From a virus (lineage: Duplodnaviria; Heunggongvirae; Uroviricota; Caudoviricetes): 22,249 nt of DNA. Shown piece by piece: positions 1 through 17,179 of this stretch. Under the pieces are notes generated by a model that saw only the letters and a list, made by a program, of their open reading frames with translations, was not told the DNA's origin and did no database searches. The stretch covers positions 1 through 22,249 of IMG/VR virus record IMGVR_UViG_2585427751_000008; one strand, 5' to 3'. A program made the translations under genes and the position numbers. Each line of letters starts with the position of its first letter. Position 1 is the first letter of the stretch.

Positions 1-1083
1 TTACAGCCATGTGATTTCTCCTACCGTCAGCAGCTCACTGTCTCCCGCCTGAACTGACGTCAGCGGACTGCGCACTTCAAAATCCTCCAGATTTTTCACC
101 CCTGCCACCGCCCGCCAGAAAGACGACGGCAGAACCAGACCGCCGGGCCGGGATTCGTTATACAACAGGTCGGTCAGCGCCTGTTTTACGGCCGCCTGAT
201 TCTCCGGTGTTTTCGGGATGATCCTGATGCTGAAGGGCACCGGCTTATTGGTCAGTTTAAACACGGTCACCGTCGGCCCCAGAGGCTGTCCGACAGGCTG
301 GCCGGTCGCCGGATCATCATGACTGCGGATATAATCCGCCACCCGCTGAACATCACCGTCACCGGGGAAAATATCCGGGTTATTATCCTGAACAAACGTT
401 ACCCCCACGCTGCCCGCCTGCGGCCATTCCGGGCGGCACCATGCCCGCGTCACGCCCGGCACTTCACGCGCCCAGCGTTCAAAATCATACTGCGTGCCGC
501 CGGACGGTGGATTCTGCACCCGGAAAACCAGACGGGAAAGCAGCTCCGGCACGGTTTCCACATCCGCACCACCGGTGATCCCCGTTCCGGTCACCGTGGC
601 CGTCTGGTTGATCCCCGCCTGCGGTGTGATAAATGTCAGTTTTGTCCCTGCCGGGGCATTCCCCGCACGACCGGCACTTTCGGCTTCCACACTGACATTC
701 AGCGTACCGGCCTTACCGGTCAGGGAGGTGGTGATACGGTAAACCACGCCATCACTTCGCTGGAGAAGCACACCTTCCTTGATCCCCGCATCCGTGGTCA
801 GCATCAGCTGAACCGGCCCGTCCCCCCGAGAGGCAGGCTTACGCATGACGCCCCAGAATGCACAGTGTTTCAGCAGTTCGGCTTCATCGGCTTCGGTCGG
901 GATGATCTGACGCGCAATCCAGGCCAGATGCTCATGCTCCTGAGCAGATAACCCTGCCTGAGCGTAAGCAATGGCATTCAGGGTGGTTTCATTCACACCC
1001 GGCTGCGAGCCGGGCAGGCGCTGGCTGATATCCTGCTGTGTCTGCGTGATTAACTGTGCCAGCGGTAAAGGCTGATAAGGCAT
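1..1083 (-). CDS. Baseplate J-like protein (Mu gp47 family)
   Basis: Complete 360 aa ORF (stop at 1-3). Translation carries the baseplate-J pattern, e.g. GGTQYDFERWAREVPGVTRAW followed by GSVGVTFV and a C-terminal LED...GEITW segment. Length and position after a gp46-like gene match Mu gp47. Confidence 0.75.
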   Translation of the reverse strand: MPYQPLPLAQLITQTQQDISQRLPGSQPGVNETTLNAIAYAQAGLSAQEHEHLAWIARQIIPTEADEAELLKHCAFWGVMRKPASRGDGPVQLMLTTDAGIKEGVLLQRSDGVVYRITTSLTGKAGTLNVSVEAESAGRAGNAPAGTKLTFITPQAGINQTATVTGTGITGGADVETVPELLSRLVFRVQNPPSGGTQYDFERWAREVPGVTRAWCRPEWPQAGSVGVTFVQDNNPDIFPGDGDVQRVADYIRSHDDPATGQPVGQPLGPTVTVFKLTNKPVPFSIRIIPKTPENQAAVKQALTDLLYNESRPGGLVLPSSFWRAVAGVKNLEDFEVRSPLTSVQAGDSELLTVGEITWL

Positions 1084-1520
1084 TACTCCCCCTTAAGATC
1101 AGCATAAAAAATCATGGGCCTCACTGAACCATCAGGCAGGGTTATGCGCACCGAAAGCACCAGCCGCGCGTGTCCCACACGTTCTGCATGACAGACCACG
1201 GATGACGCCACGCCATCCTGACTGAGCCAGCCCAGCGCCTCATCCGCGTAAGCACGGGCACGGCTTATCACCGAGGCCAGCGTTTTTTCCCGGCTGAGAA
1301 GCCACAGACGGGAGCCAATGGGGCGCGGGCGAAAACTGTCTCCCCACCATCCCCGGCGGTCGCGCGTACCGTCAGGGATTTCATCCGATGCCAGCGCCCG
1401 GCGGTCAGTAAACAGCGAAATCAGAACGGCCGTCAGCAGACTGTCATCCGTCAGCAGGTCGGCACCGTTCAGTTGCAGCGAACCGCATCCCTGATCCCAC
1501 ACAATTGCAATATCAGCCAT
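1083..1520 (-). CDS. Mu gp46-like baseplate protein
   Basis: 145 aa from ATG at 1518-1520 (the longer track ORF overlaps the upstream gene). Contains RRGWWGD and GSRLW motifs recalled from the phage GP46 family. Stop overlaps the start of the J-like gene by 1 nt. Confidence 0.55.
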   Translation of the reverse strand: MADIAIVWDQGCGSLQLNGADLLTDDSLLTAVLISLFTDRRALASDEIPDGTRDRRGWWGDSFRPRPIGSRLWLLSREKTLASVISRARAYADEALGWLSQDGVASSVVCHAERVGHARLVLSVRITLPDGSVRPMIFYADLKGE

Positions 1521-2127
1521 TCTCCGGCACTCCTGTCTTACTGCCTTCGCCGTTATCATGATGCACATGGCCGGAATACCGTATCCCTGCAATAACGGCA
1601 TCCGACATTGTGAACAGTCCCTGAGATTTCCCCGTACCCTCAAGCGCGAAATTACCCTTAACATGCAGGTTCTTATCCACCGTCACATTGCCCGTAAAGG
1701 TGGCTTCCGGCGTATCCACCCGCATCCCCTCGTCGGCGTAAATCTCCAGCATTTTGCATGTCACAATAATGCGGCCATCCTTTGTTAACCGTATCCGGTG
1801 CCCCTCATGGTGATACACCCCCGTATCTCCGGCTGTGAGTCCGGTCGGGCGGCTGCGCCGGTCTTCCACCACAAGCACCACAGTCTGATCCCGCTGTCCG
1901 CCCAGACAGGCAAAAAAGGTTTCCGCACCCGGCAGGGGAACGCTGATCTGCCCGTACTGCTGGGGACGCTCCACATCATCAAAGGTTTCACCATCCATAC
2001 CGGTGATTTGCACATTCTGGATTTTCAGCGTGTCCGTTGTGCCGGTCAGTACACCACGCCCGAACAGCAGACGAACACCCCGCATCACGGGGGCCAGAAG
2101 GCGGCTGATGACTTCGTCATTCATCAT
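1513..2127 (-). CDS. Baseplate assembly/spike protein (Mu gp45 / P2 gpV-like)
   Basis: 204 aa ORF. Size and position between gp44-like and gp46-like genes match the Mu central spike gp45. Start overlaps the upstream gene stop. Confidence 0.5.
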   Translation of the reverse strand: MMNDEVISRLLAPVMRGVRLLFGRGVLTGTTDTLKIQNVQITGMDGETFDDVERPQQYGQISVPLPGAETFFACLGGQRDQTVVLVVEDRRSRPTGLTAGDTGVYHHEGHRIRLTKDGRIIVTCKMLEIYADEGMRVDTPEATFTGNVTVDKNLHVKGNFALEGTGKSQGLFTMSDAVIAGIRYSGHVHHDNGEGSKTGVPENG

Positions 2128-3241
2128 TGAATTTAATCCCCTGTTTTTTCATCTGTGCCCGCACGAAGGCGTCCACGTCACCCGCATTTCCGCTTCCGCT
2201 GTTTCCCGGCTCTGCCGGAACAATAAAGCCGTCACGGGGTGCCAGAATCAGACGGGTGGTTTCGCCGTGATTTGCATCCAGCGAAAACTCCACCTGACAG
2301 ACAAGAAGATCACGCTCTTCCACTCCGGTGCGGGGAGCCGTGACAGCCGTCAGCAGGTTGATATCCCACAACTGGCCGTTCTCCCGAAACCAGTGCCGCA
2401 CGGTGGCTGTCAGGCGCACAGAGCGGGCAACCGCCCGGCGCATTTCCCGGACAGCCCTCTGGCGTGCACCGTCTGCATCAACAGCATGATCCGCCAGCAC
2501 AATTTTCGGTCTGTAACGGTGGATGGCACTGTCTGTCACCGTACCAACGGGTGCGGCCAGCGTTCCGGCTGTCAGTGCATCCCCGGCATGACCACCACCA
2601 CGCCCGTGCCCCCGTACACGGTATTCACTGTGGCGCAGACGGTGATCCACGTTGTGATCCAAATCCAGCAGATTTTCGCCCAGCGTCAGCGTGTCGCCAC
2701 GCTGACTGCAGGCCTGAGTGAAAACCAGTTCACCGGCGGCATTACTGGTTACCAGGACGCCTCTGTGTCTCGCGGCCCGTGTCAGCGCATCTGCCACGGT
2801 TTCTGAGTTTTCCAGTGTGAAGGTGGAAAAGGGCCGGGCTGCCGTTGCATCATTTACCTGCCAGCGCACCGTGACCCCGAACGGAGCACACAAATCTGAA
2901 GCAATGTGCTCCAGCGTGCGGTTCCTCCACTGGCTGCCCGGATGAATGGCTGAACAGTCCACCAGGTCACCGGTTTTATCCCGTCCGCTGAGCGTGATCT
3001 GAAAACGCGTGGCGCTGATGCGCTGCCGGACCTGATCCAGCCAGCCAGTGATCACAGGCTGACCGTCAATGCGCAATTCCAGAGACTGACCGGCACGGAC
3101 GGATGACGGAAGGCGTACACCGGGCATCATTACCCCCAGTTCAAAGGAGCCCGCCAGATGTTCAAGAGAGCGACGAACACTCACCGTCAGCCAGCCGGAA
3201 AAAATCTCACCGCCCAGATACAGTTCAACCCTGCTGCTCAC
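2117..3241 (-). CDS. Baseplate hub protein (Mu gp44 / P2 gpD-like)
   Basis: 374 aa ORF, close to the size of Mu gp44. Position immediately upstream of the gp45-like gene. Assignment is by synteny and size. Confidence 0.5.
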   Translation of the reverse strand: MSSRVELYLGGEIFSGWLTVSVRRSLEHLAGSFELGVMMPGVRLPSSVRAGQSLELRIDGQPVITGWLDQVRQRISATRFQITLSGRDKTGDLVDCSAIHPGSQWRNRTLEHIASDLCAPFGVTVRWQVNDATAARPFSTFTLENSETVADALTRAARHRGVLVTSNAAGELVFTQACSQRGDTLTLGENLLDLDHNVDHRLRHSEYRVRGHGRGGGHAGDALTAGTLAAPVGTVTDSAIHRYRPKIVLADHAVDADGARQRAVREMRRAVARSVRLTATVRHWFRENGQLWDINLLTAVTAPRTGVEERDLLVCQVEFSLDANHGETTRLILAPRDGFIVPAEPGNSGSGNAGDVDAFVRAQMKKQGIKFNDE

Positions 3242-4511
3242 TAATCACCTCCACTGAATGGCCTCCGGGAATGAACAGCGGATCAACAATACCGTTACGG
3301 CGCACAAAACGTTGCCAGCCGGTACTGTTCCCGGTGGCACGGTACAGGGTCACCAGTGCAGGCTCGGTGGTACGTACAGTCACTACTGTTGCACCGGGTA
3401 GCTGAACTCCCCGTGTATTCAGATCCTCTGTCAGTGCCAGTCTGGCATCACGAAGCGTCAGCGCCGTGGCGGTATACCCCTGCCCGGACAGTGTCATCAC
3501 CTGCCGTTCGAGCGCTTCGCTTAAGTCACGGTTAATGCGCTGAAGATCAACTGAACTTTCCAGCCAGACAGGCCAGGTACGGTGGGCTGCGTCACTGTCC
3601 GGCAGGGTTTCCTGACTGAGAACCTGATCCAGCAGTTTTCCCACGGTCTGTGCCTGGGCCACCACGGCAGCACTCTGCATTACCGCCCGTATCAGACGAA
3701 TATTCTTTTGTGCTGCCGGTGTCAGACCGATGAGAGTCTGCGGATTATCCTGCTCATCCAGCACGTAACGCAGGGAAGATAATGTCCTGTACAGTTGCGG
3801 CATTCCCTGAGAGACGGCGGATGTCGTCCGACCGATACTGCCTCCGGGCCGGGTATTCAGGCCTCCTGAAGACAGTGACGGCAGCGATGGCAGGGTGATC
3901 AGGGCACTGAAAAGCCCCGCAAAAGATGAGGCCATGCGGGAAGGTGCTGTCAGTAATGCCGTGGCATTCCCTTTCAGCGCCGTGAACGTGGCAGTAAAGG
4001 CACTGATATCCTGTACAATCCCCATGCCGGAAACGGCATTTTCCAGGGCGGACACCTTATCGCTGATGGTTTCGGTCATTGCCTGGACATCGTGCATTCC
4101 GTCAGAAATCACCGTCCAGCCCGCTTCCAGGGTTTCAAAAACCTTCCCGAGCGCGGTGGTACTCTTCTGCTCCAGAATGGCGGCCGTGTCCTGTGTGACA
4201 GCAGGTGCGGTACCGTCGCTGTCCACCACAATCTGCTTTCCCCACCATCCCAGCTTTTGCAGGCGTGGCGTCAGCGTGCGGATAAATTCTTTCTGTGAAA
4301 TCCCCTCATCAATGGCCCGCTGCACTTCGGCCTGTAATGTGGTCACCACATCCAGCCGTGCCGTTTTTGCTGCCGTGAATGAGCGGGCATGAACATCCGC
4401 GTCTGTTTCGAACCAGTTCCAGCTGATATGCGCCCCTTTGGCGCGGAAGTATGCCACCGTCTCTTTTGAGGGAAGCGTGGCGGCATAACCTAAATCAATC
4501 CCCTGAGCCAT
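3225..4511 (-). CDS. Phage structural protein with Mu F-like N-terminal region; possible fusion product
   Basis: 428 aa ORF without cysteines. The N-terminal ~100 aa (…HARSFTAAKTARLDVV…RAIDEGISQKEFIRTLTPRLQKLGWWGKQ) resembles the N-terminal region of Mu F-type head morphogenesis proteins as I recall them. The rest lacks the downstream F signatures I would expect and is Ala/Ser/Thr-rich. Sits where Mu has gp43. Confidence 0.4.
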   Translation of the reverse strand: MAQGIDLGYAATLPSKETVAYFRAKGAHISWNWFETDADVHARSFTAAKTARLDVVTTLQAEVQRAIDEGISQKEFIRTLTPRLQKLGWWGKQIVVDSDGTAPAVTQDTAAILEQKSTTALGKVFETLEAGWTVISDGMHDVQAMTETISDKVSALENAVSGMGIVQDISAFTATFTALKGNATALLTAPSRMASSFAGLFSALITLPSLPSLSSGGLNTRPGGSIGRTTSAVSQGMPQLYRTLSSLRYVLDEQDNPQTLIGLTPAAQKNIRLIRAVMQSAAVVAQAQTVGKLLDQVLSQETLPDSDAAHRTWPVWLESSVDLQRINRDLSEALERQVMTLSGQGYTATALTLRDARLALTEDLNTRGVQLPGATVVTVRTTEPALVTLYRATGNSTGWQRFVRRNGIVDPLFIPGGHSVEVISEQQG

Positions 4512-5055
4512 CCAGCATCCCCTTCATTTCCGCAGCAAACATGGCATCACTGAGCAGCGTCATCAGGCGGGAATCATCCATTTCACGGTAAAGGGCAGGC
4601 AGGTCTGCCAGCGCATCCGCCAGCCCCCGCGTTCTGATGGCATCAATGACCGGCTCCAGTACCGGGTCGATGGCCTCCTGTAACCGGCGGGCGGGCACCG
4701 CATCGCCCATGTCGTCCAGCTCATCACGCGGCGTGTTTTTCGCTTCCGGCAGTCGGGCTGAAAGCGCCGTCTGTTCTGTCTTTTCCTGTTTTTCCGGTAG
4801 CGTTTCCCTGTCAGGCATGGCCGGTTCATTACTGTTCTGACGGACACGGAATATGGCTTCACCGGGCGTGGGCTGTGGAATACCGGTCTGCTCCCGTACC
4901 CAGGGATCAGGAATATCCATCCCCGCACTGAGTTGCATCACCGCACTGGTTATTTTGGTGATATCCCCCGGTTCTTTGGTCTGGAAACAAATACGCGGCA
5001 GGCGACGGATATCAATGGCGTGGGCGGTGTTCAGGGCATACAGCGGATAGCTCAC
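4495..5055 (-). CDS. Hypothetical phage protein; possible C-terminal remnant of a Mu-type portal gene
   Basis: 186 aa ORF overlapping the downstream gene start by 17 nt. Acidic low-complexity stretch followed by LADLPALYREMDDSRLMTLLSDAMFAAEMKGM, which resembles C-termini of Mu-like portal (DUF935) proteins from memory. Start codon is uncertain (internal ATGs at 4938 and 4920). Confidence 0.3.
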   Translation of the reverse strand: MSYPLYALNTAHAIDIRRLPRICFQTKEPGDITKITSAVMQLSAGMDIPDPWVREQTGIPQPTPGEAIFRVRQNSNEPAMPDRETLPEKQEKTEQTALSARLPEAKNTPRDELDDMGDAVPARRLQEAIDPVLEPVIDAIRTRGLADALADLPALYREMDDSRLMTLLSDAMFAAEMKGMLDGSGD

Positions 5056-5272
5056 CGCGCAGGGTGGTGATTTCGATATTGAGTCTGTTCACCTCCTGCT
5101 GCGTGGGCAGGCCGGAAATCCGGCTCTCCACCCGCTCAACCCGATCGGAGAGTTTTTCAAAGGCCTCGCGGGGGACGAAGGTTTTGCGCATCAGCGCCAT
5201 GAAGATCCCCCCGGCCGTGGCCGTTGCCGACAGGATCGGCACAACATAATCTTTAACGATGCTGACCCACAT
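5012..5272 (-). CDS. Small membrane protein (N-terminal TM helix plus coiled coil), Mu gp25-like by position
   Basis: 86 aa with hydrophobic N-terminus VVPILSATATAGGIFMALM followed by a heptad-like region. Located downstream of the spanins in the lysis cassette. Confidence 0.4.
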   Translation of the reverse strand: MWVSIVKDYVVPILSATATAGGIFMALMRKTFVPREAFEKLSDRVERVESRISGLPTQQEVNRLNIEITTLRGELSAVCPEHRPRH

Positions 5273-5480
5273 GACCGGCCTCCATGATGTTCTGGCAGTT
5301 CACACAACGGATGGCATCCGGCACGGCAACCAGACGGGCAGCCGGAATGTCACCCCCGCAGTCCGCGCATACACGCCTGCCCGGTGTCTCCGCCACCCGG
5401 CGCTTACGTGTCAGCCGGTCACAAAGGGCGCGTTCTGTTGCCCGCTCCATGACAGCCTGAGCACAATCTGAATCATCCAT
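5253..5480 (-). CDS. TraR/DksA-family C4 zinc-finger protein
   Basis: 75 aa from ATG at 5478-5480. Contains CADC, a 17-residue spacer, then CVNC, which is the C-x2-C-x17-C-x2-C arrangement of DksA/TraR zinc fingers. Confidence 0.75.
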   Translation of the reverse strand: MDDSDCAQAVMERATERALCDRLTRKRRVAETPGRRVCADCGGDIPAARLVAVPDAIRCVNCQNIMEAGHVGQHR

Positions 5481-5490
5481 ACCTTTTTCC

Positions 5491-5862
5491 TTACTTCGTC
5501 TTTCCTGCCGGAACAGCAGGCGTTCCGGCCATATCAGTAAATTCATGTTGTCGCCGCGCCTCCAGACGACGAATACTGGCCTTGTCCACGTTGCAGTTCT
5601 TGATCACCGCCAGCAGTTGCAGGTTGTAAGTGACCGATGCCCCAAACGTGAACGGCTCCGGCGCAGGAGGGACCAGGCAGTCAGCCAGCCATTCAGCGGG
5701 GATCGGAACCGGCTGCACAGGCACGTATTTCACAGACGGCCCGGCGCACCCGCTCAGCCACATCATCAGGCACAGGAACAGAGGCCGCAGGCACTGTTGC
5801 CAGCGACCGGCGGACAACGCTCTGCTGCTCCTCGCTGTGCTGAATGTTCTGTTGCTTTTCAT
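5491..5862 (-). CDS. Outer-membrane spanin (o-spanin) lipoprotein
   Basis: Hydrophobic signal region ending in lipobox LSGC, followed by a proline-rich mature region (PVQPVPIPAEW…PPAPEP). Overlaps the 3' part of the i-spanin gene in another frame. Start at ATG 5860-5862 is a choice among alternatives. Confidence 0.55.
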   Translation of the reverse strand: MKSNRTFSTARSSRALSAGRWQQCLRPLFLCLMMWLSGCAGPSVKYVPVQPVPIPAEWLADCLVPPAPEPFTFGASVTYNLQLLAVIKNCNVDKASIRRLEARRQHEFTDMAGTPAVPAGKTK

Positions 5863-6043
5863 TCGTGGCCGCCTTGCTGATTTGTGAAATGAGTTGCAGG
5901 GTGCGTTGCTGGTTTGCCAGCACCAGACGGGCTTCGTCCCGTTCACGCACAAGCACATGATTATTGTCCTCAAGGCGCTGCGTCTTCTGGTGCATTCCCC
6001 ATACCACGGCAGCCAGCACGCTCATCACCCCCAGCGCCGCCAT
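5693..6043 (-). CDS. Inner-membrane spanin (i-spanin, Rz-like)
   Basis: N-terminal hydrophobic segment then a long charged coiled-coil-like region (QKTQRLEDNNHVLVRERDEARLVLANQQ…). ATG at 6041-6043 is preceded by GGAGG; the longer track ORF would overlap the endolysin. Confidence 0.5.
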   Translation of the reverse strand: MAALGVMSVLAAVVWGMHQKTQRLEDNNHVLVRERDEARLVLANQQRTLQLISQISKAATNEKQQNIQHSEEQQSVVRRSLATVPAASVPVPDDVAERVRRAVCEIRACAAGSDPR

Positions 6044-6155
6044 ACAGCCTCCGGCAATCAGGGCCGGTAAGGGATTGTTCACCGCAGCCACAGCACACCC
6101 CGCAGCAGCACAACGGCACACAGCAGCGCAATCATGAGCGGTCGCCAGAAGCGGT

Positions 6156-6656
6156 TCAGACTTTCGGCAAATCGTAACGACATAACCATTCATCCGCCGA
6201 ACGGCGGGCCTCAAGACCGGGGAGTTTTACCCCCTTTGAATAAATCCAGCGGATATACTGCTTACAGGACGCGGGCATCTGCCCGGCATTGATAAGGCGC
6301 AGGAGCGTGGAGTTGCGAAAGTTCGTTTCACCGGCCCAGAAAATCCAGGAGGCCAGCGCCACCGTCTGACCACGGGTAAGCGGCACCTGAACATGACGAT
6401 CGATAGCCGCAAAGGCCCATTTCATGTCCTTTTCCAGCAGCTCCAGACACTCTTCATCAGTTTTTGTCATCCCCGGTTTCACATCCGGGCCGGTATGGCC
6501 GTAACAGATGGTGGGGGTGCCGGTGGGATCAATGTACGTGGTGTTTTCTTTCCCTTCCCAGTAGCCGGTGTAGTGCGTGGCAATAGTGAACGTCCCGGCT
6601 CCGGCCAGAACAAGGGCAATCAGCTTTTTACGCAGTGGCGCGGGGAGTTTTGGCAT
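6156..6656 (-). CDS. SAR endolysin (GH24 lysozyme family, P21 R-like)
   Basis: 166 aa. N-terminal Gly/Ala-rich weakly hydrophobic segment (LIALVLAGAGTFTIATHY) typical of a signal-anchor-release domain. Catalytic region with E…D…T spacing (EGKENTTYIDPTGTPTICYGHTG) and NFRNSTLLRLIN, close to the P21 lysozyme motifs. Confidence 0.85.
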   Translation of the reverse strand: MPKLPAPLRKKLIALVLAGAGTFTIATHYTGYWEGKENTTYIDPTGTPTICYGHTGPDVKPGMTKTDEECLELLEKDMKWAFAAIDRHVQVPLTRGQTVALASWIFWAGETNFRNSTLLRLINAGQMPASCKQYIRWIYSKGVKLPGLEARRSADEWLCRYDLPKV

Positions 6657-6727
6657 TGTTACGCTGTCTCATGGTGTTCTCTGAGCCAGCGTAACCGTGG
6701 AAAAAAGGGGGCAGGATTTGCGGAATA

Positions 6728-7150
6728 TCAGAAAAGCCGGGGCTGCGTGCGCTCCTGATGCAGGCGACGCTGGTTGCGGATAACGGAGTAAATCTGCGTC
6801 TCTGACATCTGGTAATGGCGGCGCAGGGTTTCAATTTTTTCACCCTGGCTCCAGCGGGAAAAAATCTCATTATTGCGCAGTTCGGTGAAAAGGGATTCAC
6901 CGACCGGGAGATAATAACCACGCCCGCCCATGTACCCGGCCTGTGCGGCCGCAACCTTACGGGCAAGCATTCCCGCCTGAGCAGATTCAATCCCCTGACG
7001 GTGCAGTTCAGCACTGATCACATCAACCAGGTCACGCAGCGTGCCGGGCCAGTTCTTTTTCAGCTCATCATCAGGAATATCATCCAGACGGTCAATCAGC
7101 GCGTGCAGCTGTTCGCTGTCACCAAACATGCTCATCTGTGTTTCAGCCAT
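6728..7150 (-). CDS. Mor/C-family transcriptional activator (middle/late gene activator)
   Basis: 140 aa with the C-terminal pattern of Mu Mor/C proteins (GRGYYLP…NNEIFSRW…RHYQMSETQIYSVIR). Located between the GemA-like gene and the endolysin, as mor/C are in Mu. Only one family member is present. Confidence 0.7.
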   Translation of the reverse strand: MAETQMSMFGDSEQLHALIDRLDDIPDDELKKNWPGTLRDLVDVISAELHRQGIESAQAGMLARKVAAAQAGYMGGRGYYLPVGESLFTELRNNEIFSRWSQGEKIETLRRHYQMSETQIYSVIRNQRRLHQERTQPRLF

Positions 7151-7182
7151 ACCCGCCTCCGGTCACCATTACACAGGGCAAG

Positions 7183-7214
7183 TTTAAAATAAAAATCCCG
7201 CGCTGTGGCGGGAT
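7183..7214 (-). terminator. Intrinsic terminator between early operon and Mor/C gene
   Basis: Inverted repeat ATCCCGC (7195-7201) / GCGGGAT (7208-7214) with a 6-nt loop. On the minus strand the stem is followed by a U-rich run (complement of 7183-7194). Confidence 0.5.
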
Positions 7215-7220
7215 TTGGGG

Positions 7221-7730
7221 TTAAAAAGGGGAGGATTCTTCATACAGCCTGCAAACGCGCTCATAACTCATCACTGTACGCACTGACATCCCCAGCACAT
7301 CCAGCATCTTGCGACGGTGCCAGCGTTTGAGACACTCCAGCACATCCGAGGCCAGTGCGGGGTGTTGCTCCAGCCACTGCCAGTTAGCCACACCTTCGCC
7401 ACCGTTCTGCGCGGCCGTCTGCGACTTCACCCAGCGGTTAAGGGCCGTTTCCCCGCCATCAGCGATAAAGCCCTGCCGGTGCATTACCTTCCAGATGGCG
7501 CGAATTTTGGCGGTCACCGTACCCGGTTTTAAGGCCCGGTTAACCGGTTTCTGACGCACTTTAAAACCGCGTTTTTTGAAAACATCCAGCACGCGGGATA
7601 ACTCATCCGGTGACATATCCCGGCAACTGGATTTGCCGGTGGCTGCCAGCAGAACGAATGTATAGGTTTCATCATCCAGGGCAAGCTCGCGCTTTGCCAC
7701 ATGAATGGCGGATATCAGTTTCCCTCTCAT
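7221..7730 (-). CDS. GemA-like early protein (Mu gp16 family, DUF1018)
   Basis: 169 aa. N-terminal MRGKLISAIHVAKRELALDDETY resembles the GemA N-terminus. Immediately upstream of the Mor/C gene as in Mu. Confidence 0.6.
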   Translation of the reverse strand: MRGKLISAIHVAKRELALDDETYTFVLLAATGKSSCRDMSPDELSRVLDVFKKRGFKVRQKPVNRALKPGTVTAKIRAIWKVMHRQGFIADGGETALNRWVKSQTAAQNGGEGVANWQWLEQHPALASDVLECLKRWHRRKMLDVLGMSVRTVMSYERVCRLYEESSPF

Positions 7731-9307: not shown

Positions 9308-9310
9308 GCA

Positions 9311-10359: not shown

Positions 10360-10362
10360 GAA

Positions 10363-10905: not shown

Positions 10906-11002
10906 ATTTCCTGTTCCTTATTTTCAGTTTACAGGCGCAAGCAGCCCTCTGACGCGAGCGCCATAATTAAAACAATGTGATATCTAAAGATTTAATGCGG
11001 TG

Positions 11003-11533: not shown

Positions 11534-11544
11534 TTTGTTTTTCC

Positions 11545-11838: not shown

Positions 11839-11842
11839 GGAA

Positions 11843-12115
11843 TTACCCCTGCTGATTAAATTCATTACCTTTAATAACCCCGGAACGCATGCTCATATCT
11901 TTCATGAGCGCACTGGCTTTCATTGCCACAAGTTCAGCAAAGTCTCTGCTTTCCGCGAGCATAACCACCCCAAAAATCATGGCGGGTCCATCACCTTTCT
12001 GCTTTATCCCGGTTGAACGTATGTCCAGACTTACCCCCATGCGCACTGTTCCATCAGGGTTTTTATGGATAACGTGCTCCTTGTATTCGAAAATAATGCG
12101 TACGACTTTACTCAT
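11843..12115 (-). CDS. Hypothetical small protein, paralogue of the adjacent downstream ORF
   Basis: 90 aa. N-terminal similarity to the neighbouring ORF indicates a tandem duplication. Confidence 0.4.
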   Translation of the reverse strand: MSKVVRIIFEYKEHVIHKNPDGTVRMGVSLDIRSTGIKQKGDGPAMIFGVVMLAESRDFAELVAMKASALMKDMSMRSGVIKGNEFNQQG

Positions 12116-12363
12116 CCTCTGGTCCTCGTTCTGTTTGGATAACTGACCCGGCGTCTGACCTCACGGCAGAACCGAATCATGGCATTAAAGGCTTCTTCCT
12201 CCGTCACCGCTTCCGGTATCACCATTCGTGTGCGGTCATTAAATTCAAAAAGTAAATCGCCACATTCTTTATTTTCGGCCAGTGAAATCACCTTCACGTT
12301 ATCGAAATTAACCAGGTAAAAGCGTCCGTAAATATCAGGAATATTAAATACCGCCATAATCAC
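12112..12363 (-). CDS. Hypothetical small protein immediately downstream of B
   Basis: 83 aa ORF whose start overlaps the B stop codon. Position corresponds to the kil region of Mu, but no sequence similarity is claimed. Confidence 0.35.
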   Translation of the reverse strand: MIMAVFNIPDIYGRFYLVNFDNVKVISLAENKECGDLLFEFNDRTRMVIPEAVTEEEAFNAMIRFCREVRRRVSYPNRTRTRG

Positions 12364-13292
12364 ACCTGTGAGAGTAATTCAGGGTTGGTATAAACCTCTT
12401 TAAAGGCCGCATTAATATGTTTTTCTGTCAGCGCCGCGCCTTCACCGCTGGCGGTGAGCCACGCCTGGTTAAGCGTATGTGTCAGAACGCGTAACGCTCC
12501 CGGTTTTTCAGCGATAGCCTGCATGACGGCCAGCTCGGCCTCACCACTGATACCCCATGCCCTGGCAATGGCCAGCACATCCGCCTTTTTAGCCTTGCGA
12601 AGTTGTTTTGTACGGGCAAGACGACTGAACAGGCGCGATAAGTCATCAACGGCGCGGCGTCCACCCTTAAACAGTCCGCGCGGGTTACCAATAAGCACCA
12701 TCCCGATCCCCGTGGCGTCCTGGATTGCACGCAGTTGTTCCAGACCGTCAATACCCAGATGATCCGCCTCATCCACAATCACCAGTCCACGCGTTCCCGT
12801 CAGGCGACGGCGGATGGCGCGGGATAACGCCCCCTTGTTCGCGCGGGTGTAATCAATCCCCAGCGCATCGGCCAGCTCCAGCAGACACTCCGTGACGCTG
12901 GAGTGCGCGGGTGACAGGGTGATCATCCAGGTGTTTGGTTGCTCCTGGCAGTAATTACGGGCGGTGGCCGTTTTACCCACACCCGGTACGCCCACAATGA
13001 CGTTAATACAGCCCATCAGGCGAACCGCCTGAAACAGTGCGCGCAGCTCCTGGACTGTCTGCGTTTCCACAAACTGCGGCGGTTCCGGCAGTGCGCTTTG
13101 TTTATTCCAGTTCTCATACCAGGAACGCAGGGAAGCAGCCACAGCGGCGTTATCGCCTTTATATTTCCCCTTGCGGAAAGCCGATAATGTGCCGTCGGAA
13201 ATTCCCGCCTCTCTGGCGATGGCATACTGCGTCAGTACGCCGCCATCAATAAGTTCATCAATGGTCTTGATTACATCGTTAATATCAGTCAT
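12360..13292 (-). CDS. B: Transposition ATPase B (MuB-like AAA+ protein)
   Basis: 310 aa. N-terminal HTH-like region, Walker A GVPGVGKT, Walker B LVIVDEAD. Size and position downstream of A match MuB. Confidence 0.9.
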   Translation of the reverse strand: MTDINDVIKTIDELIDGGVLTQYAIAREAGISDGTLSAFRKGKYKGDNAAVAASLRSWYENWNKQSALPEPPQFVETQTVQELRALFQAVRLMGCINVIVGVPGVGKTATARNYCQEQPNTWMITLSPAHSSVTECLLELADALGIDYTRANKGALSRAIRRRLTGTRGLVIVDEADHLGIDGLEQLRAIQDATGIGMVLIGNPRGLFKGGRRAVDDLSRLFSRLARTKQLRKAKKADVLAIARAWGISGEAELAVMQAIAEKPGALRVLTHTLNQAWLTASGEGAALTEKHINAAFKEVYTNPELLSQV

Positions 13293-13327: not shown

Positions 13328-13364
13328 AATAACCTGAGTCGCCGCTCGGGTTATTTTTTTATTT
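13328..13364 (+). terminator. Intrinsic-terminator-like hairpin in the A-B intergenic region, oriented antisense to the transposase operon
   Basis: Stem AATAACCTGAG (13328-13338) pairs with CTCGGGTTATT (13345-13355), 6-nt loop, then a T-run on the plus strand (13356-13364). The minus-strand downstream sequence is not U-rich. Confidence 0.35.
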
Positions 13365-15454
13365 CAGGCCAGTGGATCACTTTCTTTTAATTTTGCTTCG
13401 AGCAGTTGCAATCCCCGCTGGAAATTACGCTCGTATTCTTCATCAGGTTCATCGTCAGCGACCGGTTGCTGAACGGTCACCGTATTACCCACAGGGCGGT
13501 ATATGTTTTCCAGCCATGGCTCCTGCGGCTTGTGCTCCAGCACGTTGACAACCTCATCCTCGGCATCACGGATTTTTTCCTCTGCGCGTTTACGCATACC
13601 TTTAAGGCGCTGTTGCTGTTTGTAGTATTCCGCGCTGACCGGGAAGGCTTCGCGTTTATTGCCGTCCCATACCGCCTCGCAAATCACGCTGCCATCCGGG
13701 CGACGAACGGTAATTCGTTCGGCATCATGAATGTCATAGCTGATAAGCACCTTGCGGCCATGCTCATCACGCAGCTCGGGCGCGTAGTAAATATTATTCA
13801 GCCAGCGTATTTCACAGCGTCTTACAGGGCGCTCCACCATCGGCCGGAACATGTCCCGCAATTCCACATCGGACAGCCATTCAATTTCCGTATCCTCTTC
13901 TGCCAGGCGTTTTTTTCTGAACTCCGCCGGGCTGTAATGCTTGCCGTTCGGCTTCACCGGTAATTCATCGTGCGGCCGGTTGTTGTACCACTCAACACCG
14001 TCACGAATGGCATCAATCAGTTCAGACCAGGACGGTAAATCACGCATCGCTGACTGCTGCCGGGCGTTCAGCCGTTTGCCCTGTTGCAGGGCAGTAAATG
14101 CCGAGCGTAAATCGCGGTTGGTTTTACGTAACGTCTCGCGATCTGCACCTTTCCCGAAATAGGTGCGGTATCTGCGGGCTATGCGCATCGGTAATGTGCG
14201 GTTAAGCCGTTCGATAATGCCCCGTCCCTGCGGGTTACCGGCAATTCCGGTCGGGTGATTAATCCCCAGTCGCGGCAGTATCCCCACAATCTCTTTATCC
14301 AGGATGTCGGCCGTTTCCCCGGAGCCGTTATCCGAGTAATACAGAAACGGTTTGCCGTGATAGCGAATACCGTGCTGTATGGCGCCGGCTACGGCGAAAA
14401 CATTTTCAGCCAGGTCAAGGCTCCAGCCCACCACAAAGCGCGTGCCACCGTCGATAACAAAGGTCACTTCCGGTGCAAATGGCCGCCCGTGAACCGGGTG
14501 CCTGCATTTCAGCTTCATGCCGTGACCGTCACCAATCCAGACATAATTAACCGGCATTTTTGACCAGTCGCGGCGCGTGAATCCCTCAAGCTGGCGGTAT
14601 TCACTGCCGGTCACCCGGCCTTTTTGTTTCACCACTTCCGGCAATTTTTTCATTGCGCGGCGAATAGTGTCATAAGAGGGCATGATATCGAGCATATAAG
14701 GCTCATCAGCGTGCCGGTGCTGCCATTCGGCGACAAAATCCTCGTAAGCCTCGGTCATTGGTCGGCCGTTTGACTGGCGATACTGCGCCAGAAATTCGGG
14801 CAGCCAGTTAATATCTTCGGCTTTTATTTCCTGGCGTTTACCCGGTGCCAGTAAAAGCAGGCGTTCAGCGGCGTTCTGTGCCTTGTTAAAGGCCGCAATC
14901 CAGCGTTTCAGCGTGATTTCACTCAACGCGCGGCGGTTTCCCTTTTTGGCGTTCGCTGTCTCAACCATTGCCACAATGCGCTCGTCCAGTTGTGAGCGTG
15001 ACAGACGGTCAACAATAAACCGGATAGCTTTAGCGCAGCTGAAACCGGGTTGTTGCGCGAATTTCAGCACCTCGCTGACAATCGCGATTCGTGCATCAGC
15101 CACCTGCCGCTGGTTTTCAGTCAGGGCATTGAGGCGTTCGACCATCAGTTGTGGTGAACCGCGATATGCCTCCACCACATCAACCACGTCAGGTGAGCGT
15201 CTGGCCTTTGTCACCACCGGAGCCGGTGATTCGTCGGCTTTTTGCGTCATCAGTTGCAGGGCGTAGCGTTCACGCAATGCCTGCTGCGTCACTTCAGGTA
15301 AACAGTCGATGCTGTATTCAGTTGCTTTAGAGCCTGAGCGACGACGGGAACAACAGCTTTTCCCTTGTGCGTAACGTTGTAATGCCTGGCGAATACCTTT
15401 TGTTGTAGCAGGCATTCCGGGCGCGCCAATCAGTTCTTTTGCAATGACATACAT
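13364..15454 (-). CDS. A: DDE transposase A (MuA family)
   Basis: 696 aa. Catalytic-core motifs in MuA-like order and spacing: WIGDGH, YYSDNGS, NPQGRGIIERLNRT. Followed by B and preceded by a Ner-like gene. Confidence 0.9.
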   Translation of the reverse strand: MYVIAKELIGAPGMPATTKGIRQALQRYAQGKSCCSRRRSGSKATEYSIDCLPEVTQQALRERYALQLMTQKADESPAPVVTKARRSPDVVDVVEAYRGSPQLMVERLNALTENQRQVADARIAIVSEVLKFAQQPGFSCAKAIRFIVDRLSRSQLDERIVAMVETANAKKGNRRALSEITLKRWIAAFNKAQNAAERLLLLAPGKRQEIKAEDINWLPEFLAQYRQSNGRPMTEAYEDFVAEWQHRHADEPYMLDIMPSYDTIRRAMKKLPEVVKQKGRVTGSEYRQLEGFTRRDWSKMPVNYVWIGDGHGMKLKCRHPVHGRPFAPEVTFVIDGGTRFVVGWSLDLAENVFAVAGAIQHGIRYHGKPFLYYSDNGSGETADILDKEIVGILPRLGINHPTGIAGNPQGRGIIERLNRTLPMRIARRYRTYFGKGADRETLRKTNRDLRSAFTALQQGKRLNARQQSAMRDLPSWSELIDAIRDGVEWYNNRPHDELPVKPNGKHYSPAEFRKKRLAEEDTEIEWLSDVELRDMFRPMVERPVRRCEIRWLNNIYYAPELRDEHGRKVLISYDIHDAERITVRRPDGSVICEAVWDGNKREAFPVSAEYYKQQQRLKGMRKRAEEKIRDAEDEVVNVLEHKPQEPWLENIYRPVGNTVTVQQPVADDEPDEEYERNFQRGLQLLEAKLKESDPLA

Positions 15455-15455: not shown

Positions 15456-15704
15456 TCATGACGCCTTTCTCATATAGCTCTTAACCTGGTATCTACTGGG
15501 CCAGATTTCTTCAGGCGATACCCCAAGAGCATCAGCAATTATTTGCTGATACGGGCGGCAAGGAGTACGTAATACGCTTTTCAGCGAGTCCCTGCTGTAA
15601 CCAGCCTTTAAAGATAAAGAGCGCAGTGATAAGCCAGCCATGTGTAGGCGCGCCTTGATGATTTCTGGCGGCCAATCGTGATCTGAAACTTCTCTTCTAC
15701 TCAT
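15456..15704 (-). CDS. ner: Ner-like DNA-binding regulator (Ner/Nlp family)
   Basis: 82 aa with the Ner/Nlp signature (…LSLRSLSLKAGYSRDSLKSVL…QQIIADALGVSPEEIWPSRY). Immediately upstream of A and divergent from the repressor. Confidence 0.8.
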   Translation of the reverse strand: MSRREVSDHDWPPEIIKARLHMAGLSLRSLSLKAGYSRDSLKSVLRTPCRPYQQIIADALGVSPEEIWPSRYQVKSYMRKAS

Positions 15705-15893: not shown

Positions 15894-16424
15894 ATGTCGC
15901 AGGGAAAAGAACCTGTTATTGAACGTATTGGGATGCTTACAAAACGCTATCCTTCAAGAAGTGCAGCTGCCAGAGCGTGGGGAATTAATATCAACACATT
16001 AAACAGCTATTTCAAGGGAGGGCAAACACAACCAGCCCCAAGAGAAAGCATTCTTATACGAATTTCTAAAAGTGAAGGTGTTAGTCTTGAGTGGCTTAAA
16101 GAGGGCAAGGGAGAATCACCAAAAGACATTGGTATTTCTGGTGATTTTGGTTGTTCTGGTGATAAGGGAGATCAGCTTACACAGATGCTTTCATTCCTCA
16201 CGAAAGACGAACGAGAACAACTAACCAATCTCCTTGCTCGCAAAGGTGTAGAGACTGTTCTGACACTACTGGATAAAGAAAACCAGGATTTATTACAACT
16301 AGAGGGCAGGAAGCGCCTGGCTGCTTTGATGATTGTGGATATGCCTGACGATAGTGTCAGAGAGATTTTGGAAAAAACCGAGACAAGTAGGCAATCAAAT
16401 CCGGTAGAATCTAAAGCGGGTTAG
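15894..16424 (+). CDS. Phage repressor (c-type, HTH DNA-binding domain plus coiled-coil C-terminus)
   Basis: 176 aa from ATG at 15894, preceded by AAGAGG at 15881-15886. The track ORF starting at 15801 adds an implausible hydrophobic extension. HTH-like segment SRSAAARAWGININTLNSYF…VSLEWLKEGKG. Transcribed toward the phage end, divergent from ner. Confidence 0.65.
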   Translation: MSQGKEPVIERIGMLTKRYPSRSAAARAWGININTLNSYFKGGQTQPAPRESILIRISKSEGVSLEWLKEGKGESPKDIGISGDFGCSGDKGDQLTQMLSFLTKDEREQLTNLLARKGVETVLTLLDKENQDLLQLEGRKRLAALMIVDMPDDSVREILEKTETSRQSNPVESKAG

Positions 16425-16675: not shown

Positions 16676-17179
16676 GTGCTGAAGAAATATGGTTACACCG
16701 GTAAAGACGATAAAGTTTATTTGCAATGTTTTGATGCTGATGAGCTGAAGCGTATTAAGAATGAGCTGGAACCCAAAATGGGCATGGAGCTCAATCTGGT
16801 ACAGCTGATTGCCTATACCGACTGGAATGAAACGCAGCAGAAACAGCCGGATGGAAGCTGGGTTAATTACAACTACGACTGGATGTTTAAGCCGGGTGCC
16901 ATGAAACAGGTGGCGGAATATGCAGATGGTATTGGTCCGGATTACCATATGTTGATTGAGGAGACATCGCAGCCGGGTAATATCAAACTCACTGGCATGG
17001 TGCAAGATGCTCAGCAGAATAAACTGGTAGTGCATCCTTATACCGTGCGGTCAGATAAACTGCCTGAATACACTCCTGATGTGAATCAGTTATATGATGC
17101 TCTGTATAACAAAGCGGGTGTAAATGGGCTGTTTACTGATTTCCCTGATAAGGCAGTAAAATTTCTTAATAAAGAGTAA
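16676..17179 (+). pseudogene. glpQ: glpQ 3' fragment (glycerophosphodiester phosphodiesterase, C-terminal ~167 codons) truncated by prophage insertion
   Basis: Translation (V)LKKYGYTGKDDKVYLQCFDADELKRIKNELEPKMGMELNLVQLIAYTDW…FPDKAVKFLNKE matches the C-terminal half of E. coli GlpQ as recalled. An in-frame TAA at 16673-16675 and prophage end repeats lie immediately upstream; there is no signal peptide or N-terminal half. Confidence 0.85.

What the first reader, a model, noticed from the sequence alone, without database searches (positions are those of the whole stretch)
3225..6156. Virion genes are missing between the lysis cassette and the baseplate cluster: likely an internally deleted, defective Mu-like prophage
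In Mu the lysis genes are followed by roughly 20 kb encoding terminase, portal, F, protease/scaffold, capsid, sheath, tube, tape measure and gp43 before the gp44-gp47 baseplate genes. Here the endolysin ends at 6156 and the gp44-like gene begins at 3241. The 2.9 kb between holds only spanins, a TraR-like gene, a small membrane protein, a 186 aa ORF and a 428 aa ORF. No ORF in the window is large enough or has the motifs for a terminase, portal, major capsid, sheath or tape-measure protein. The 186 aa ORF resembles a portal C-terminus and the 428 aa ORF begins like a Mu F protein but then diverges, which would fit two deletions that left remnant or fusion ORFs. The transposition genes, ends, lysis genes and baseplate genes look intact, so the element may still transpose or lyse without forming particles.
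Basis: partly seen in the sequence, partly recalled or inferred. Interest (0 to 1): 0.7.

Follow-up and report, generated by a model that had tools for sequence, protein, structure and literature searches.

The report
Internally deleted defective Mu-like prophage
This is an E. coli Mu-like (Sakai Sp18-type) prophage that has lost about 15 kb, including all its head, packaging and tail-shaft genes, through three clean internal deletions, so it is an ordinary decaying prophage that cannot build virus particles on its own.

Summary
The window is E. coli chromosome (glpQ'-inaA-yfaE-nrdBA). It carries a Mu-like prophage of the Sakai Sp18 family, inserted in glpQ. I aligned it to an intact relative, E. 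coli 102651, and to a 99.8%-identical relative, AST198. This shows three sharp breakpoints with 2-4 bp microhomology.

- **D1** (TA at 4211-4212) removes 10,451 bp, from the gp43 N-terminus through the C-terminal part of F. That covers tape measure, tube, sheath, connector genes, major capsid, protease and G.
- **D2** (TA at 5048-5049) removes 3,913 bp: the N-terminal 345 aa of portal, both terminase subunits, a gp26-like gene and the last 28 aa of the DUF2730 releasin homologue.
- **D3** (TATC at 12217-12220) removes 526 bp, including kil.

The 428-aa ORF is an in-frame fusion of F(1-100) to gp43(121-449). The 186-aa ORF is portal residues 346-529.

The same junctions occur in independent isolate and metagenome assemblies, so they are real. 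Carriers with readable flanks sit at the same glpQ site.

- There are three deletions, not two.
- The lysis cassette is not fully intact.
- The region homologous to Mu's gyrase-site interval is lost.
- Only the left end lies in the window.

The kind is well known, so interest is low.

The parts
1..1083 (-). gp47-like baseplate J protein (360 aa), intact. The prophage continues to the left beyond the window and the contig.
   Evidence: PF04865 E 2.8e-62; 53% identical to Mu gp47 end to end; 99.8% ungapped DNA identity to AST198
1083..1520 (-). gp46-like baseplate protein (145 aa)
   Evidence: PF07409 GP46 on the called gene; 58% identical to Mu gp46
1513..2127 (-). gp45-like baseplate spike (204 aa)
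   Evidence: PF06890 E 5e-25; 52% identical to Mu gp45
2117..3241 (-). gp44-like baseplate hub (374 aa)
   Evidence: PF22255, PF21683, PF21929; phrog_177 E 1e-150; 47% identical to Mu gp44
3225..4511 (-). In-frame fusion ORF (428 aa): F minor head protein residues 1-100 joined to gp43 (DNA circularization / baseplate hub) residues 121-449. It keeps F's native start and gp43's native overlap with gp44.
   Evidence: phrog_220 on aa 3-94 and phrog_184 on aa 98-425, profile positions 123-411 of 411. No Pfam hit, because the parents' Phage_Mu_F domain (58-187) is cut and DNA_circ_N (7-92) is deleted. 102/105 identical to AST198 F 1-105 and 330/331 identical to gp43 119-449.
4207..4220 (.). Deletion junction D1. 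Crossover at TA (4211-4212) inside a 10/14 imperfect microhomology. 10,451 bp are missing relative to intact relative L003.
   Evidence: blastn breakpoints; three-way sequence comparison
4495..5055 (-). Portal remnant (186-aa ORF): portal residues 346-529. The GTG 'start' lies across the junction in DUF2730 sequence and I see no Shine-Dalgarno match, so it is probably not a real gene.
   Evidence: 184/184 identical to AST198 portal 346-529; phrog_113 E 6e-39; Pfam Portal_Mu 284-336 of 336 at 16.7 bits, below the 23.9 cutoff; Mu gp29 346-511 at 39%; upstream sequence read
5047..5050 (.). Deletion junction D2. Crossover at TA (5048-5049). 3,913 bp are missing.
5012..5272 (-). Truncated DUF2730 protein (homologue of the Mu gp25 releasin): native residues 1-75, then 11 out-of-frame residues. 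28 C-terminal residues are lost.
   Evidence: PF10805 E 3.5e-15; alignment to the 103-aa AST198 protein; function of the family from PMC9239132
5253..5546 (-). TraR/DksA zinc-finger protein
   Evidence: PF01258 E 1.3e-11
5491..5733 (-). o-spanin (LysC/Rz1-like, 80 aa), embedded in and overlapping the i-spanin gene
   Evidence: PF23793 E 2.6e-17; gene call in L004
5693..6091 (-). i-spanin (132 aa)
   Evidence: phrog_214 E 2.5e-30; DUF2570, weak
6156..6656 (-). Endolysin (166 aa) with a SAR-type N-terminus: R9-K10-K11 followed by a Gly/Ala-rich weak transmembrane segment, and the E-8-D-5-T catalytic motif
   Evidence: PF00959 E 1e-36; 40% identical to Mu gp22; N-terminus read from the translation
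6728..7150 (-). Mor/C-family late transcription activator (140 aa)
   Evidence: PF08765 on the called gene
12112..12357 (-). Early-region fusion ORF (81 aa) left by deletion D3: residues 1-47 of a 73-aa protein joined to residues 59-93 of a 93-aa protein. The 84-aa kil gene between them is gone.
   Evidence: the deleted gene is phrog_2679 'Kil protein for bacterial septation inhibition', E 7e-46, and PF26843 in precomputed hits
12217..12220 (.). Deletion junction D3. Crossover in TATC. 526 bp are missing.
   Evidence: Of 232 complete E. coli genomes that match a 401-bp query across this junction, 218 hold at least 80% of it; in all 15 listed the two halves are separated by the extra 526 bp.
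12360..13292 (-). MuB-like AAA+ transposition ATPase (310 aa), intact
   Evidence: PF09077 and PF13401; the exact protein is listed in 683 blocks of the public collection
13364..15454 (-). MuA-like DDE transposase (696 aa), full length as in intact relatives
   Evidence: PF09299 and PF02316; same 696-aa length in L003, L010, L014 and others
15456..15704 (-). Ner-like early regulator (82 aa)
   Evidence: PF13693 E 2.5e-19
15894..16424 (+). Repressor (176 aa), full length
   Evidence: phrog_3037 E 9e-62 covering 12-188 of 189; region 100% identical to L010 and L013
16500..16674 (-). Left (c-proximal) prophage end, reading T-A-TAACCAGGTGAATCATTTGATACC... on the minus strand. The boundary with host DNA falls at 16672-16674.
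   Evidence: Conserved end sequence at 12 or more different insertion sites; the K-12 match starts at 16674
16676..17179 (+). Remnant of the host gene glpQ (167 aa, GDPD domain), interrupted by the prophage insertion
   Evidence: 99.9% match to the K-12 glpQ-inaA-yfaE-nrdB-nrdA region; PF03009 on the called gene in L020

Best explanation
The window holds a defective derivative of a Mu-like transposable prophage of the E. coli O157 Sakai 'Sp18' family, inserted in the chromosomal gene glpQ.

Three internal deletions removed 14,890 bp relative to an intact relative. Each junction shows only 2-4 bp of perfect microhomology, which fits illegitimate recombination by replication slippage or microhomology end-joining. 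That mechanism is inferred.

- **D1** fused the first 100 codons of the F minor head gene in frame to codon 121 of gp43. It removed G, protease/scaffold, major capsid, three connector/terminator genes, DUF2635, sheath, tube, tail chaperone and tape measure. It also removed the G-I intergenic region.
- **D2** removed the last 28 codons of the DUF2730 releasin homologue, a gp26-like gene, the small and large terminase genes, an 82-aa gene and the first 345 codons of portal.
- **D3** removed kil.

Shown: the element lacks every gene needed for DNA packaging, capsid and tail shaft.

Inferred: it therefore cannot produce particles by itself.

Still full length: repressor, Ner, MuA, MuB, Gam, GemA, the Mor/C-type activator, SAR endolysin, both spanins and baseplate genes gp44-gp47. 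The left end is also intact.

Inferred: derepression would probably still give transposase expression and some replicative transposition, as laboratory mini-Mu elements do. It would likely be slowed by loss of the region homologous to Mu's central gyrase-site interval. Lysis would probably be delayed or weakened because the releasin homologue is truncated.

All carriers whose flank can be read sit at the same glpQ site. The element therefore behaves as a vertically inherited, progressively decaying prophage.
For: - **Family and host.** MuA, MuB, Ner, Gam, GemA, Mor, lysozyme and gp44-47 domains are present. The host flank is 99.9% identical to K-12 glpQ-nrdA. The late region of the family matches Sakai 'prophage Sp18, Mu-like phage'.
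- **Breakpoints.** Window 1-4220, 4207-5049 and 5048-12223 align ungapped at 99.7-99.9% to AST198 positions 2819-7038, 15247-16089 and 20001-27176. They align to intact relative L003 at 589-4808, 15246-16088 and 20001 onward.
- **Missing genes.** The annotated intact relative carries terminase, portal, F, G, protease, gpT, connectors, sheath, tube, chaperone, tape measure and gp43 in the gaps.
- **Fusion and remnant ORFs.** These are mapped residue by residue. tblastn finds none of the other late proteins in the window.
- **Not an assembly artefact.** The exact 428-aa fusion protein is on 20 contigs and the exact 81-aa D3 fusion is on 24 contigs. These come from separate isolates, sequencing runs and metagenomes, with identical junction DNA.
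- **Derived and rare state.** 226 of 258 family-bearing complete E. coli genomes keep at least 80% of the 21-kb late region. None has the window's junction arrangement.
- **Same insertion site.** L020 and L024 show the same glpQ insertion.
- **Functional context.** The releasin role of DUF2730 is from PMC9239132. Mini-Mu replication, the gyrase site near G/I and its function in the Sakai prophage are from PMC10052514.
Against: - Nothing contradicts the deletion origin.
- The functional statements are untested. No induction, transposition or lysis data exist.
- The right end, the tail-fibre genes and the 5-bp target duplication are outside the window and the contig.
- The terminal dinucleotide of the left end reads TA rather than Mu's TG. 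The same variant occurs at five or more independent insertion sites in relatives, so it is evidently compatible with transposition.
- The order 'D1 before D2' rests on one metagenome contig (L007). That contig could be a chimeric assembly through the 843-bp segment shared with an intact relative.
Confidence: 0.93

Rival explanations
1. A different but complete module order: the head and tail-shaft genes are not lost but lie elsewhere, for example to the left of the baseplate and fibre genes. On this view the 428-aa protein would be a normal single-family protein.
For: The window stops at gp47, so the DNA further left cannot be read.
Against: - The 428-aa ORF is chimeric, with F on aa 1-100 and gp43 on aa 98-428, and has no Pfam domain.
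- The 186-aa ORF is a portal C-terminal fragment.
- Relatives 99.8% identical across the flanks have the genes in Mu order exactly at the breakpoints.
- In relatives the DNA to the left of gp47 holds gp48, fibre genes, an invertase and Com/Mom, not head genes.
Confidence: 0.01
2. Assembly artefact: the junctions come from mis-joined short-read contigs in a genome that carries an intact prophage.
For: - The source is a draft assembly whose contig ends inside the prophage.
- Several carrier contigs break at the same places, window 1960 and 13831.
- MuA shows clustered SNPs in sister assemblies.
- Together these hint at a second related sequence in these samples.
Against: - The three junctions are spanned by single contigs in many independent data sets: NCBI GCA_000714025.1, GCA_000714015.1 and GCA_000700725.1, several Logan runs and ENA metagenomes. 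Their sequence is identical.
- The parental sequences share only 2-4 bp at each junction, far too little to mislead an assembler.
Confidence: 0.02
3. A natural 'mini-Mu' that is still mobile. It would depend on a co-resident or superinfecting intact Sp18-type phage for heads and tails. Being about 15 kb short, it would be packaged by headful with extra host DNA, so it would act as a satellite-like transducing element rather than as inert debris.
For: - It keeps the repressor, A, B and the left end. Laboratory mini-Mus with these plus the right end replicate on induction (PMC10052514).
- Contig breaks and mosaic MuA sequence in carriers hint at a second Mu-like copy in the same samples.
- kil is lost, which could make carriage cheaper.
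Against: - Every carrier with a readable flank is at the same glpQ site: the window, L020 and L024. There is therefore no sign of movement after the deletions.
- Sister copies show further decay: a 1-bp frameshift in MuA in L020 and a deletion removing Gam in L024.
- The region homologous to Mu's gyrase-site interval is deleted.
- The right end has not been seen.
Confidence: 0.08
4. A domesticated remnant kept by selection for a host benefit, such as superinfection immunity from the repressor or functions of early-region genes. The toxic or costly parts (kil, virion genes, part of the lysis control) would have been selectively removed.
For: - The deletions remove kil and truncate the releasin homologue, while the repressor, Ner, A, B and most of the early region stay full length.
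- Four other independent deletions in the family also remove late genes and keep the early region: AST198, TOE17, L013 and L010.
Against: - The endolysin and spanins are retained.
- The carriers are nearly identical, with 0-1 SNP over 8-12 kb outside MuA. That leaves no time depth to detect selection.
- Further loss-of-function changes occur in sister copies.
- Most family members are full length.
Confidence: 0.1

Closest known systems
Prophage Sp18 of E. coli O157:H7 Sakai and its relatives in about 5% of complete E. coli genomes (for example the intact copy in strain 102651, NZ_CP189662)
   Same: Same gene set and order, with 90-99.9% DNA identity in every retained segment. It shares the same MuA/MuB/Ner/repressor organisation, the same left-end sequence and apparently random insertion sites.
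   Different: It lacks 14.9 kb: the whole packaging, head and tail-shaft region, kil, and the G-I intergenic region. It carries fusion and remnant ORFs at the junctions. Sp18 itself was judged intact in silico (PMC2669165).
Bacteriophage Mu (AF083977)
   Same: Same overall architecture. Protein homology runs from 24% (A) to 58% (F N-terminus, gp46). It has the SAR endolysin, spanins and DUF2730 lysis cassette, and the baseplate genes gp44-47.
   Different: Much higher GC in the late region and a single Mor/C-type activator gene upstream of the endolysin (Mu has Mor and C). Genes equivalent to Mu 26-42 and kil are missing.
Laboratory mini-Mu elements (internal deletion derivatives of Mu)
   Same: Internal deletions that keep the repressor, A, B and, as far as can be seen, the termini. 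Such elements replicate by transposition on induction and need a helper for packaging (PMC10052514).
   Different: It arose naturally, in three steps. It keeps the lysis and baseplate genes. Its right end is unverified, and no mobility has been shown.
Other independently deleted members of the same family (AST198, TOE17, GCA_965179715.1, GCA_047853765.1)
   Same: Internal deletions that remove head and/or tail genes and spare the early region.
   Different: Different breakpoints and a single deletion each. None shares D1, D2 or D3.

Membership tests
Mu-like transposable phage (Sp18-type, relative of Muvirus) | MuA-type DDE transposase with a Mu DNA-binding N-terminus and the Mu-transpos_C domain | tested here: met
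   696-aa ORF at 13364-15454 with PF09299 (E 2e-17) and PF02316 (E 1e-6). Same length as in intact relatives.
Mu-like transposable phage (Sp18-type, relative of Muvirus) | MuB-type AAA+ target-capture ATPase directly downstream of the transposase | tested here: met
   PF09077 E 2.5e-25 and PF13401; 49% identical to Mu B
Mu-like transposable phage (Sp18-type, relative of Muvirus) | Divergent repressor and Ner genes next to the left end | tested here: met
   Ner PF13693; repressor phrog_3037 E 9e-62
Mu-like transposable phage (Sp18-type, relative of Muvirus) | Conserved terminal sequences at both ends, flanked by a 5-bp target duplication | tested here: inconclusive
   The left end is conserved with 12 or more independent insertions and abuts glpQ at 16672-16674. 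Its terminal dinucleotide is TA here, versus TG in about half the relatives. The right end and the duplication are not in the window or contig.
Mu-like transposable phage (Sp18-type, relative of Muvirus) | Insertion at many unrelated chromosomal sites rather than at one attachment site | tested here: met
   Relatives sit in yghD/pitB, citC-citD, motA/lafU, near kdp, in a lambdoid tail region and elsewhere. This copy is in glpQ.
Mu-like transposable phage (Sp18-type, relative of Muvirus) | Complete late region in Mu order: lysis, terminase, portal, F, G, protease, capsid, sheath, tube, tape measure, gp43-gp48 | tested here: not met
   Only the lysis genes, a portal fragment, the F'-'gp43 fusion and gp44-47 are present. 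The element belongs to the family by descent but is not a complete phage.
Defective prophage formed by internal deletion | Sharp breakpoints against a near-identical intact relative, with truncated or fused ORFs at the junctions | tested here: met
   Three junctions resolved to 2-4 bp; fusion and remnant ORFs mapped
Defective prophage formed by internal deletion | Inability to form infectious particles | not testable with these tools
   Inferred from the absence of terminase, full portal, capsid, sheath, tube and tape measure. Confirmation needs induction with electron microscopy and a plaque assay.
Mini-Mu-like transposition-competent deletion derivative | Repressor, A, B and both termini retained, with replication on induction | tested here: inconclusive
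   The repressor, A, B and the left end are present and full length. The right end is unseen. The G-I intergenic region homologous to Mu's gyrase-site region is deleted. No sign of movement: three carriers are at the same site.
Pfam Phage_Mu_F (PF04233), DNA_circ_N (PF07157) and Portal_Mu (PF06074), tested on the two ORFs | Score above the family's gathering threshold | tested here: not met
   The 428-aa ORF hits no Pfam family. The 186-aa ORF hits Portal_Mu at 16.7 bits, below the 23.9 cutoff, on the last 53 profile positions only. The full-length parental proteins pass: F 104.9 bits, gp43 88.7 bits, portal 313.6 bits. The ORFs are fragments of these families, not members in their own right.

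The most novel reading that the evidence does not exclude
The element is a naturally arisen mini-Mu that is still mobilisable. With the repressor, A, B and its ends it could replicate by transposition when derepressed, and an intact Sp18-type helper in the same cell could package it. Contig breaks and mosaic MuA sequence hint at a second copy in carrier samples. Because it is about 15 kb short, headful packaging would carry a correspondingly longer stretch of adjacent host DNA, which would make it a high-frequency transducing vehicle. Loss of kil and truncation of the releasin homologue would reduce its cost to the host.
Probability: 0.07. Interest if true: 0.5.

Novelty: new member of a known kind. 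Interest (0 to 1): 0.22.

Why it matters
Mainly for annotation and bookkeeping. The 428-aa and 186-aa ORFs should be labelled as a fusion and a remnant pseudogene, not as hypothetical proteins. The element should be scored as a defective prophage unable to make particles.

It is also a tidy worked example of stepwise prophage decay in a transposable phage:
- the breakpoints are known exactly;
- there is a possible intermediate with D1 only;
- sister copies show later decay (a MuA frameshift and loss of Gam);
- four further independent late-region deletions occur in the same family.

The particular losses (kil, the C-terminus of the releasin homologue, and the region homologous to Mu's gyrase-site interval) make simple testable predictions about induction, replication timing and lysis. 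None of this would surprise a phage biologist.

Tried and rejected
- **Pfam on the two ORFs.** The deletions cut or remove the Pfam domains. PHROGs and direct alignment to relatives gave the answer.
- **Phage collection.** It gave only two Stx-phage records carrying an inserted Mu-like phage, and these matched the lysis side alone.
- **The same junctions in complete E. coli genomes.** None was found.
- **Post-deletion transposition.** I looked up the exact fusion proteins in public assemblies. All readable flanks are the same glpQ site.
- **The 'tRNA-OTHER' annotated between F and G in relatives.** ARAGORN finds nothing and Rfam gives a sub-threshold tRNA match at 27.8 bits against a 29-bit cutoff. 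It lies inside the D1 interval, so it is irrelevant to the window.
- **RNA scans of the window.** The Rfam scan found only a host REP-type naRNA4 between nrdA and nrdB. ARAGORN found no tRNAs.
- **A second, intact Mu-like prophage in the source genome.** I considered testing for one but could not. The look-up tools cannot be restricted to one assembly.

Full report
**What the window is.** Genes run mostly on the minus strand. From 16674 to the right end the DNA is 99.9% identical to E. coli K-12 across glpQ (partial), inaA, yfaE, nrdB and nrdA. To the left of that lies a Mu-like prophage:
- repressor (phrog_3037);
- Ner, a 696-aa MuA-type transposase and a 310-aa MuB;
- an early region with Gam, gp11- and gp12-like genes, GemA and a Mor/C-family activator;
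- a lysozyme, two spanins, a TraR/DksA protein and a DUF2730 protein;
- the two ORFs in question, then gp44, gp45, gp46 and gp47 baseplate genes.

The window is 100% identical to contig JOQJ01000005.1 of assembly GCA_000714025.1. That contig ends 34 bp to the left of window position 1. The tail-fibre genes and the right prophage end are therefore unavailable.

**Checking the observation.** I ran tblastn with the late proteins of an intact relative against all six frames of the window. Only three hit: portal residues 346-529, F residues 1-105 and gp43 residues 119-449. The gp27-family protein, large terminase, G, protease, major capsid, three connector proteins, DUF2635, sheath, tube, chaperone and tape measure give nothing. 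The same is true for phage Mu's own proteins.

**What the two ORFs are.** PHROG profiles split the 428-aa protein into two parts. Residues 3-94 match the minor head protein family. Residues 98-425 match positions 123-411 of 411 of the gp43-type baseplate hub family. The 186-aa protein matches the C-terminal part of the portal family.

Pfam finds nothing in the 428-aa protein and only a sub-threshold Portal_Mu match in the 186-aa protein. The parental proteins explain this. In the near-identical relative AST198, F carries Phage_Mu_F at residues 58-187, gp43 carries DNA_circ_N at residues 7-92, and portal carries Portal_Mu at residues 62-402. The deletions cut the first, remove the second and leave only the tail of the third.

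Residue-level alignment gives:
- 428-aa ORF: F 1-100 joined to gp43 121-449, in frame;
- 186-aa ORF: portal 346-529 (184/184 identical), preceded by two residues from a fortuitous GTG that lies across the junction.

I see no Shine-Dalgarno match upstream of that GTG (sequence). The 186-aa ORF is best treated as a pseudogene fragment.

**The breakpoints.** A megablast search of complete E. coli genomes found 231 genomes with related prophages. I took AST198 (L001) and strain 102651 (L003, fully intact late region) as references.

| Window segment | AST198 (L001) | Identity |
|---|---|---|
| 1-4220 | 2819-7038 | 99.83% |
| 4207-5049 | 15247-16089 | 99.88% |
| 5048-12223 | 20001-27176 | 99.71% |
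| 12217-15328 | 27696-30807 | 97.65% |

All four alignments are ungapped. The same pattern is seen against L003. Three-way sequence comparison places the crossovers as follows:
- D1 at TA, 4211-4212, within a 10/14 imperfect match;
- D2 at TA, 5048-5049;
- D3 at TATC, 12217-12220.

Relative to L003 the missing DNA is 10,451 bp, 3,913 bp and 526 bp, which totals 14,890 bp.

**What was lost.**
- **D1:** gp43 residues 1-120, tape measure, tail chaperone, tube, sheath, DUF2635, DUF1834, gp436-family, HI1506-related, major capsid gpT, protease, G and the C-terminal three-quarters of F. It also removes the G-protease intergenic region.
- **D2:** the last 28 residues of the DUF2730 protein, the VpaChn25_0724/gp26-like gene, the gp27-family small terminase, an 82-aa gene, the 554-aa large terminase and portal residues 1-345.
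- **D3:** it fuses residues 1-47 of a 73-aa protein to residues 59-93 of a 93-aa protein. It removes the 84-aa gene between them, which is Kil (phrog_2679, E 7e-46; PF26843).

**Is it real and how common is it?** The exact 428-aa fusion protein is encoded on 20 public contigs and the exact 81-aa D3 fusion on 24. The sources include two further NCBI isolates, several independent sequencing runs and metagenome assemblies. Junction DNA is identical, with 0-1 SNP outside MuA. Parental sequences share only 2-4 bp at each junction. Mis-assembly is therefore excluded.

The state is derived and rare:
- 258 of 5,426 complete E. coli genomes carry the family, and Sakai's 'prophage Sp18, Mu-like phage' is among them;
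- 226 of those keep at least 80% of the 21-kb late region in one place;
- no complete genome has the window's arrangement;
- of 232 genomes that match a query spanning the D3 junction, 218 hold at least 80% of it, and in all 15 listed the two halves are separated by the extra 526 bp.

**History.** One metagenome contig (L007) carries the D1 junction next to a full-length portal and terminase. This suggests D1 came before D2. However, a chimeric assembly through the 843-bp shared segment cannot be excluded.

Two other carriers with readable flanks (L020, L024) have the same glpQ insertion. They also show further decay: a 1-bp frameshift in MuA in L020 and a deletion that removes Gam in L024. 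I found no copy at a second site, so there is no evidence of transposition after the deletions.

**What probably still works.**
- *Shown:* the repressor, Ner, MuA, MuB, the Mor/C activator, endolysin, spanins and gp44-47 are full length. The left end is 100% identical to that of relatives inserted elsewhere.
- *Inferred, particles:* none can be made.
- *Inferred, transposition:* laboratory mini-Mus that keep the repressor, A, B and both ends replicate on induction (PMC10052514), so some transposition is plausible. In Mu, however, the strong gyrase site lies between G and I. Deleting it delays replication by about 100 minutes, and the site from the Sakai Mu-like prophage is the only foreign one reported to substitute (PMC10052514). 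The homologous intergenic region has a conserved block shared with Mu and lies inside D1.
- *Inferred, lysis:* the endolysin has a SAR-type N-terminus with basic residues R9-K10-K11. Mu's SAR endolysin depends on the DUF2730 protein gp25, the 'releasin', and the whole length of gp25 constitutes the family (PMC9239132). Here that protein is cut at residue 75 of 103, so lysis may be delayed.
- *Inferred, baseplate expression:* Mu's late promoter for the baseplate operon lies inside the 3' part of gene 43. The corresponding part of gp43 is retained, so baseplate genes might still be transcribed. I did not test whether that promoter is conserved.

**Comparison with what is known.** By descent this is a member of the Sp18-type Mu-like prophage family. 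It fails the test of being a complete phage, and it resembles a laboratory mini-Mu in architecture. Four other independent deletions in the family also remove late genes and spare the early region:
- AST198 lacks 2.2 kb, including the major capsid gene;
- TOE17 lacks 15.6 kb;
- GCA_965179715.1 lacks 16.8 kb;
- GCA_047853765.1 lacks everything from Mor to the fibre genes.

This is the usual picture of prophage decay.

**Verdict.** The kind is well known, so interest is low.

Noticed in passing
window 12112-12357 (junction at 12217-12220): A third deletion of 526 bp in the early region removes the kil gene (septation inhibitor) and fuses its two neighbours into an 81-aa ORF. The exact fusion protein also occurs on a contig (L029) whose neighbouring DNA is about 4% divergent, which suggests the kil-less allele has moved by recombination.
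   Followed up: yes
window 16660-16674; L001-L019 left ends: The left end of this prophage family reads T(G/A)TAACCAGGTGAATCA. The window and at least five independently inserted relatives have TA rather than the canonical Mu TG as the terminal dinucleotide.
   Followed up: partly
L001 12230-13447; L002 12426-12605; L013 19726-19839; L010 16599-16894: There are four other independent internal deletions in the same prophage family (AST198, TOE17, GCA_965179715.1, GCA_047853765.1). L019 has an IS insertion in the lysozyme gene. All spare the early region.
   Followed up: partly
L020 6905-8994; L024 2012-4351; window 13236-14935: Sister copies of the same deleted element carry clustered SNPs confined to MuA. 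L020 also has a 1-bp frameshift there. Many short-read contigs of carriers break at window 1960 and 13831. This may reflect a second Mu-like prophage in these genomes, or gene conversion or consensus mixing.
   Followed up: partly
L024 5600-5886: One metagenome copy of the element at the same glpQ site has a further deletion removing Gam and neighbouring small genes, which is continued decay.
   Followed up: no
L003 14138-14225 (the equivalent region is deleted from the window): RefSeq annotates a 'tRNA-OTHER' on the opposite strand between F and G in intact relatives. ARAGORN finds nothing and Rfam tRNA scores 27.8 bits, just under its 29-bit threshold.
   Followed up: partly
window 7500-9300: A low-GC (about 44%) stretch in the early region holds small ORFs of unknown function (phrog_17269, phrog_2358, phrog_1988) and a Myb/AsnC-like regulator. 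This segment varies between relatives.
   Followed up: no
window 19837-19907 (+): A host REP-derived naRNA4 (RF02564, 76 bits) lies between nrdA and nrdB. It is an ordinary E. coli feature.
   Followed up: no
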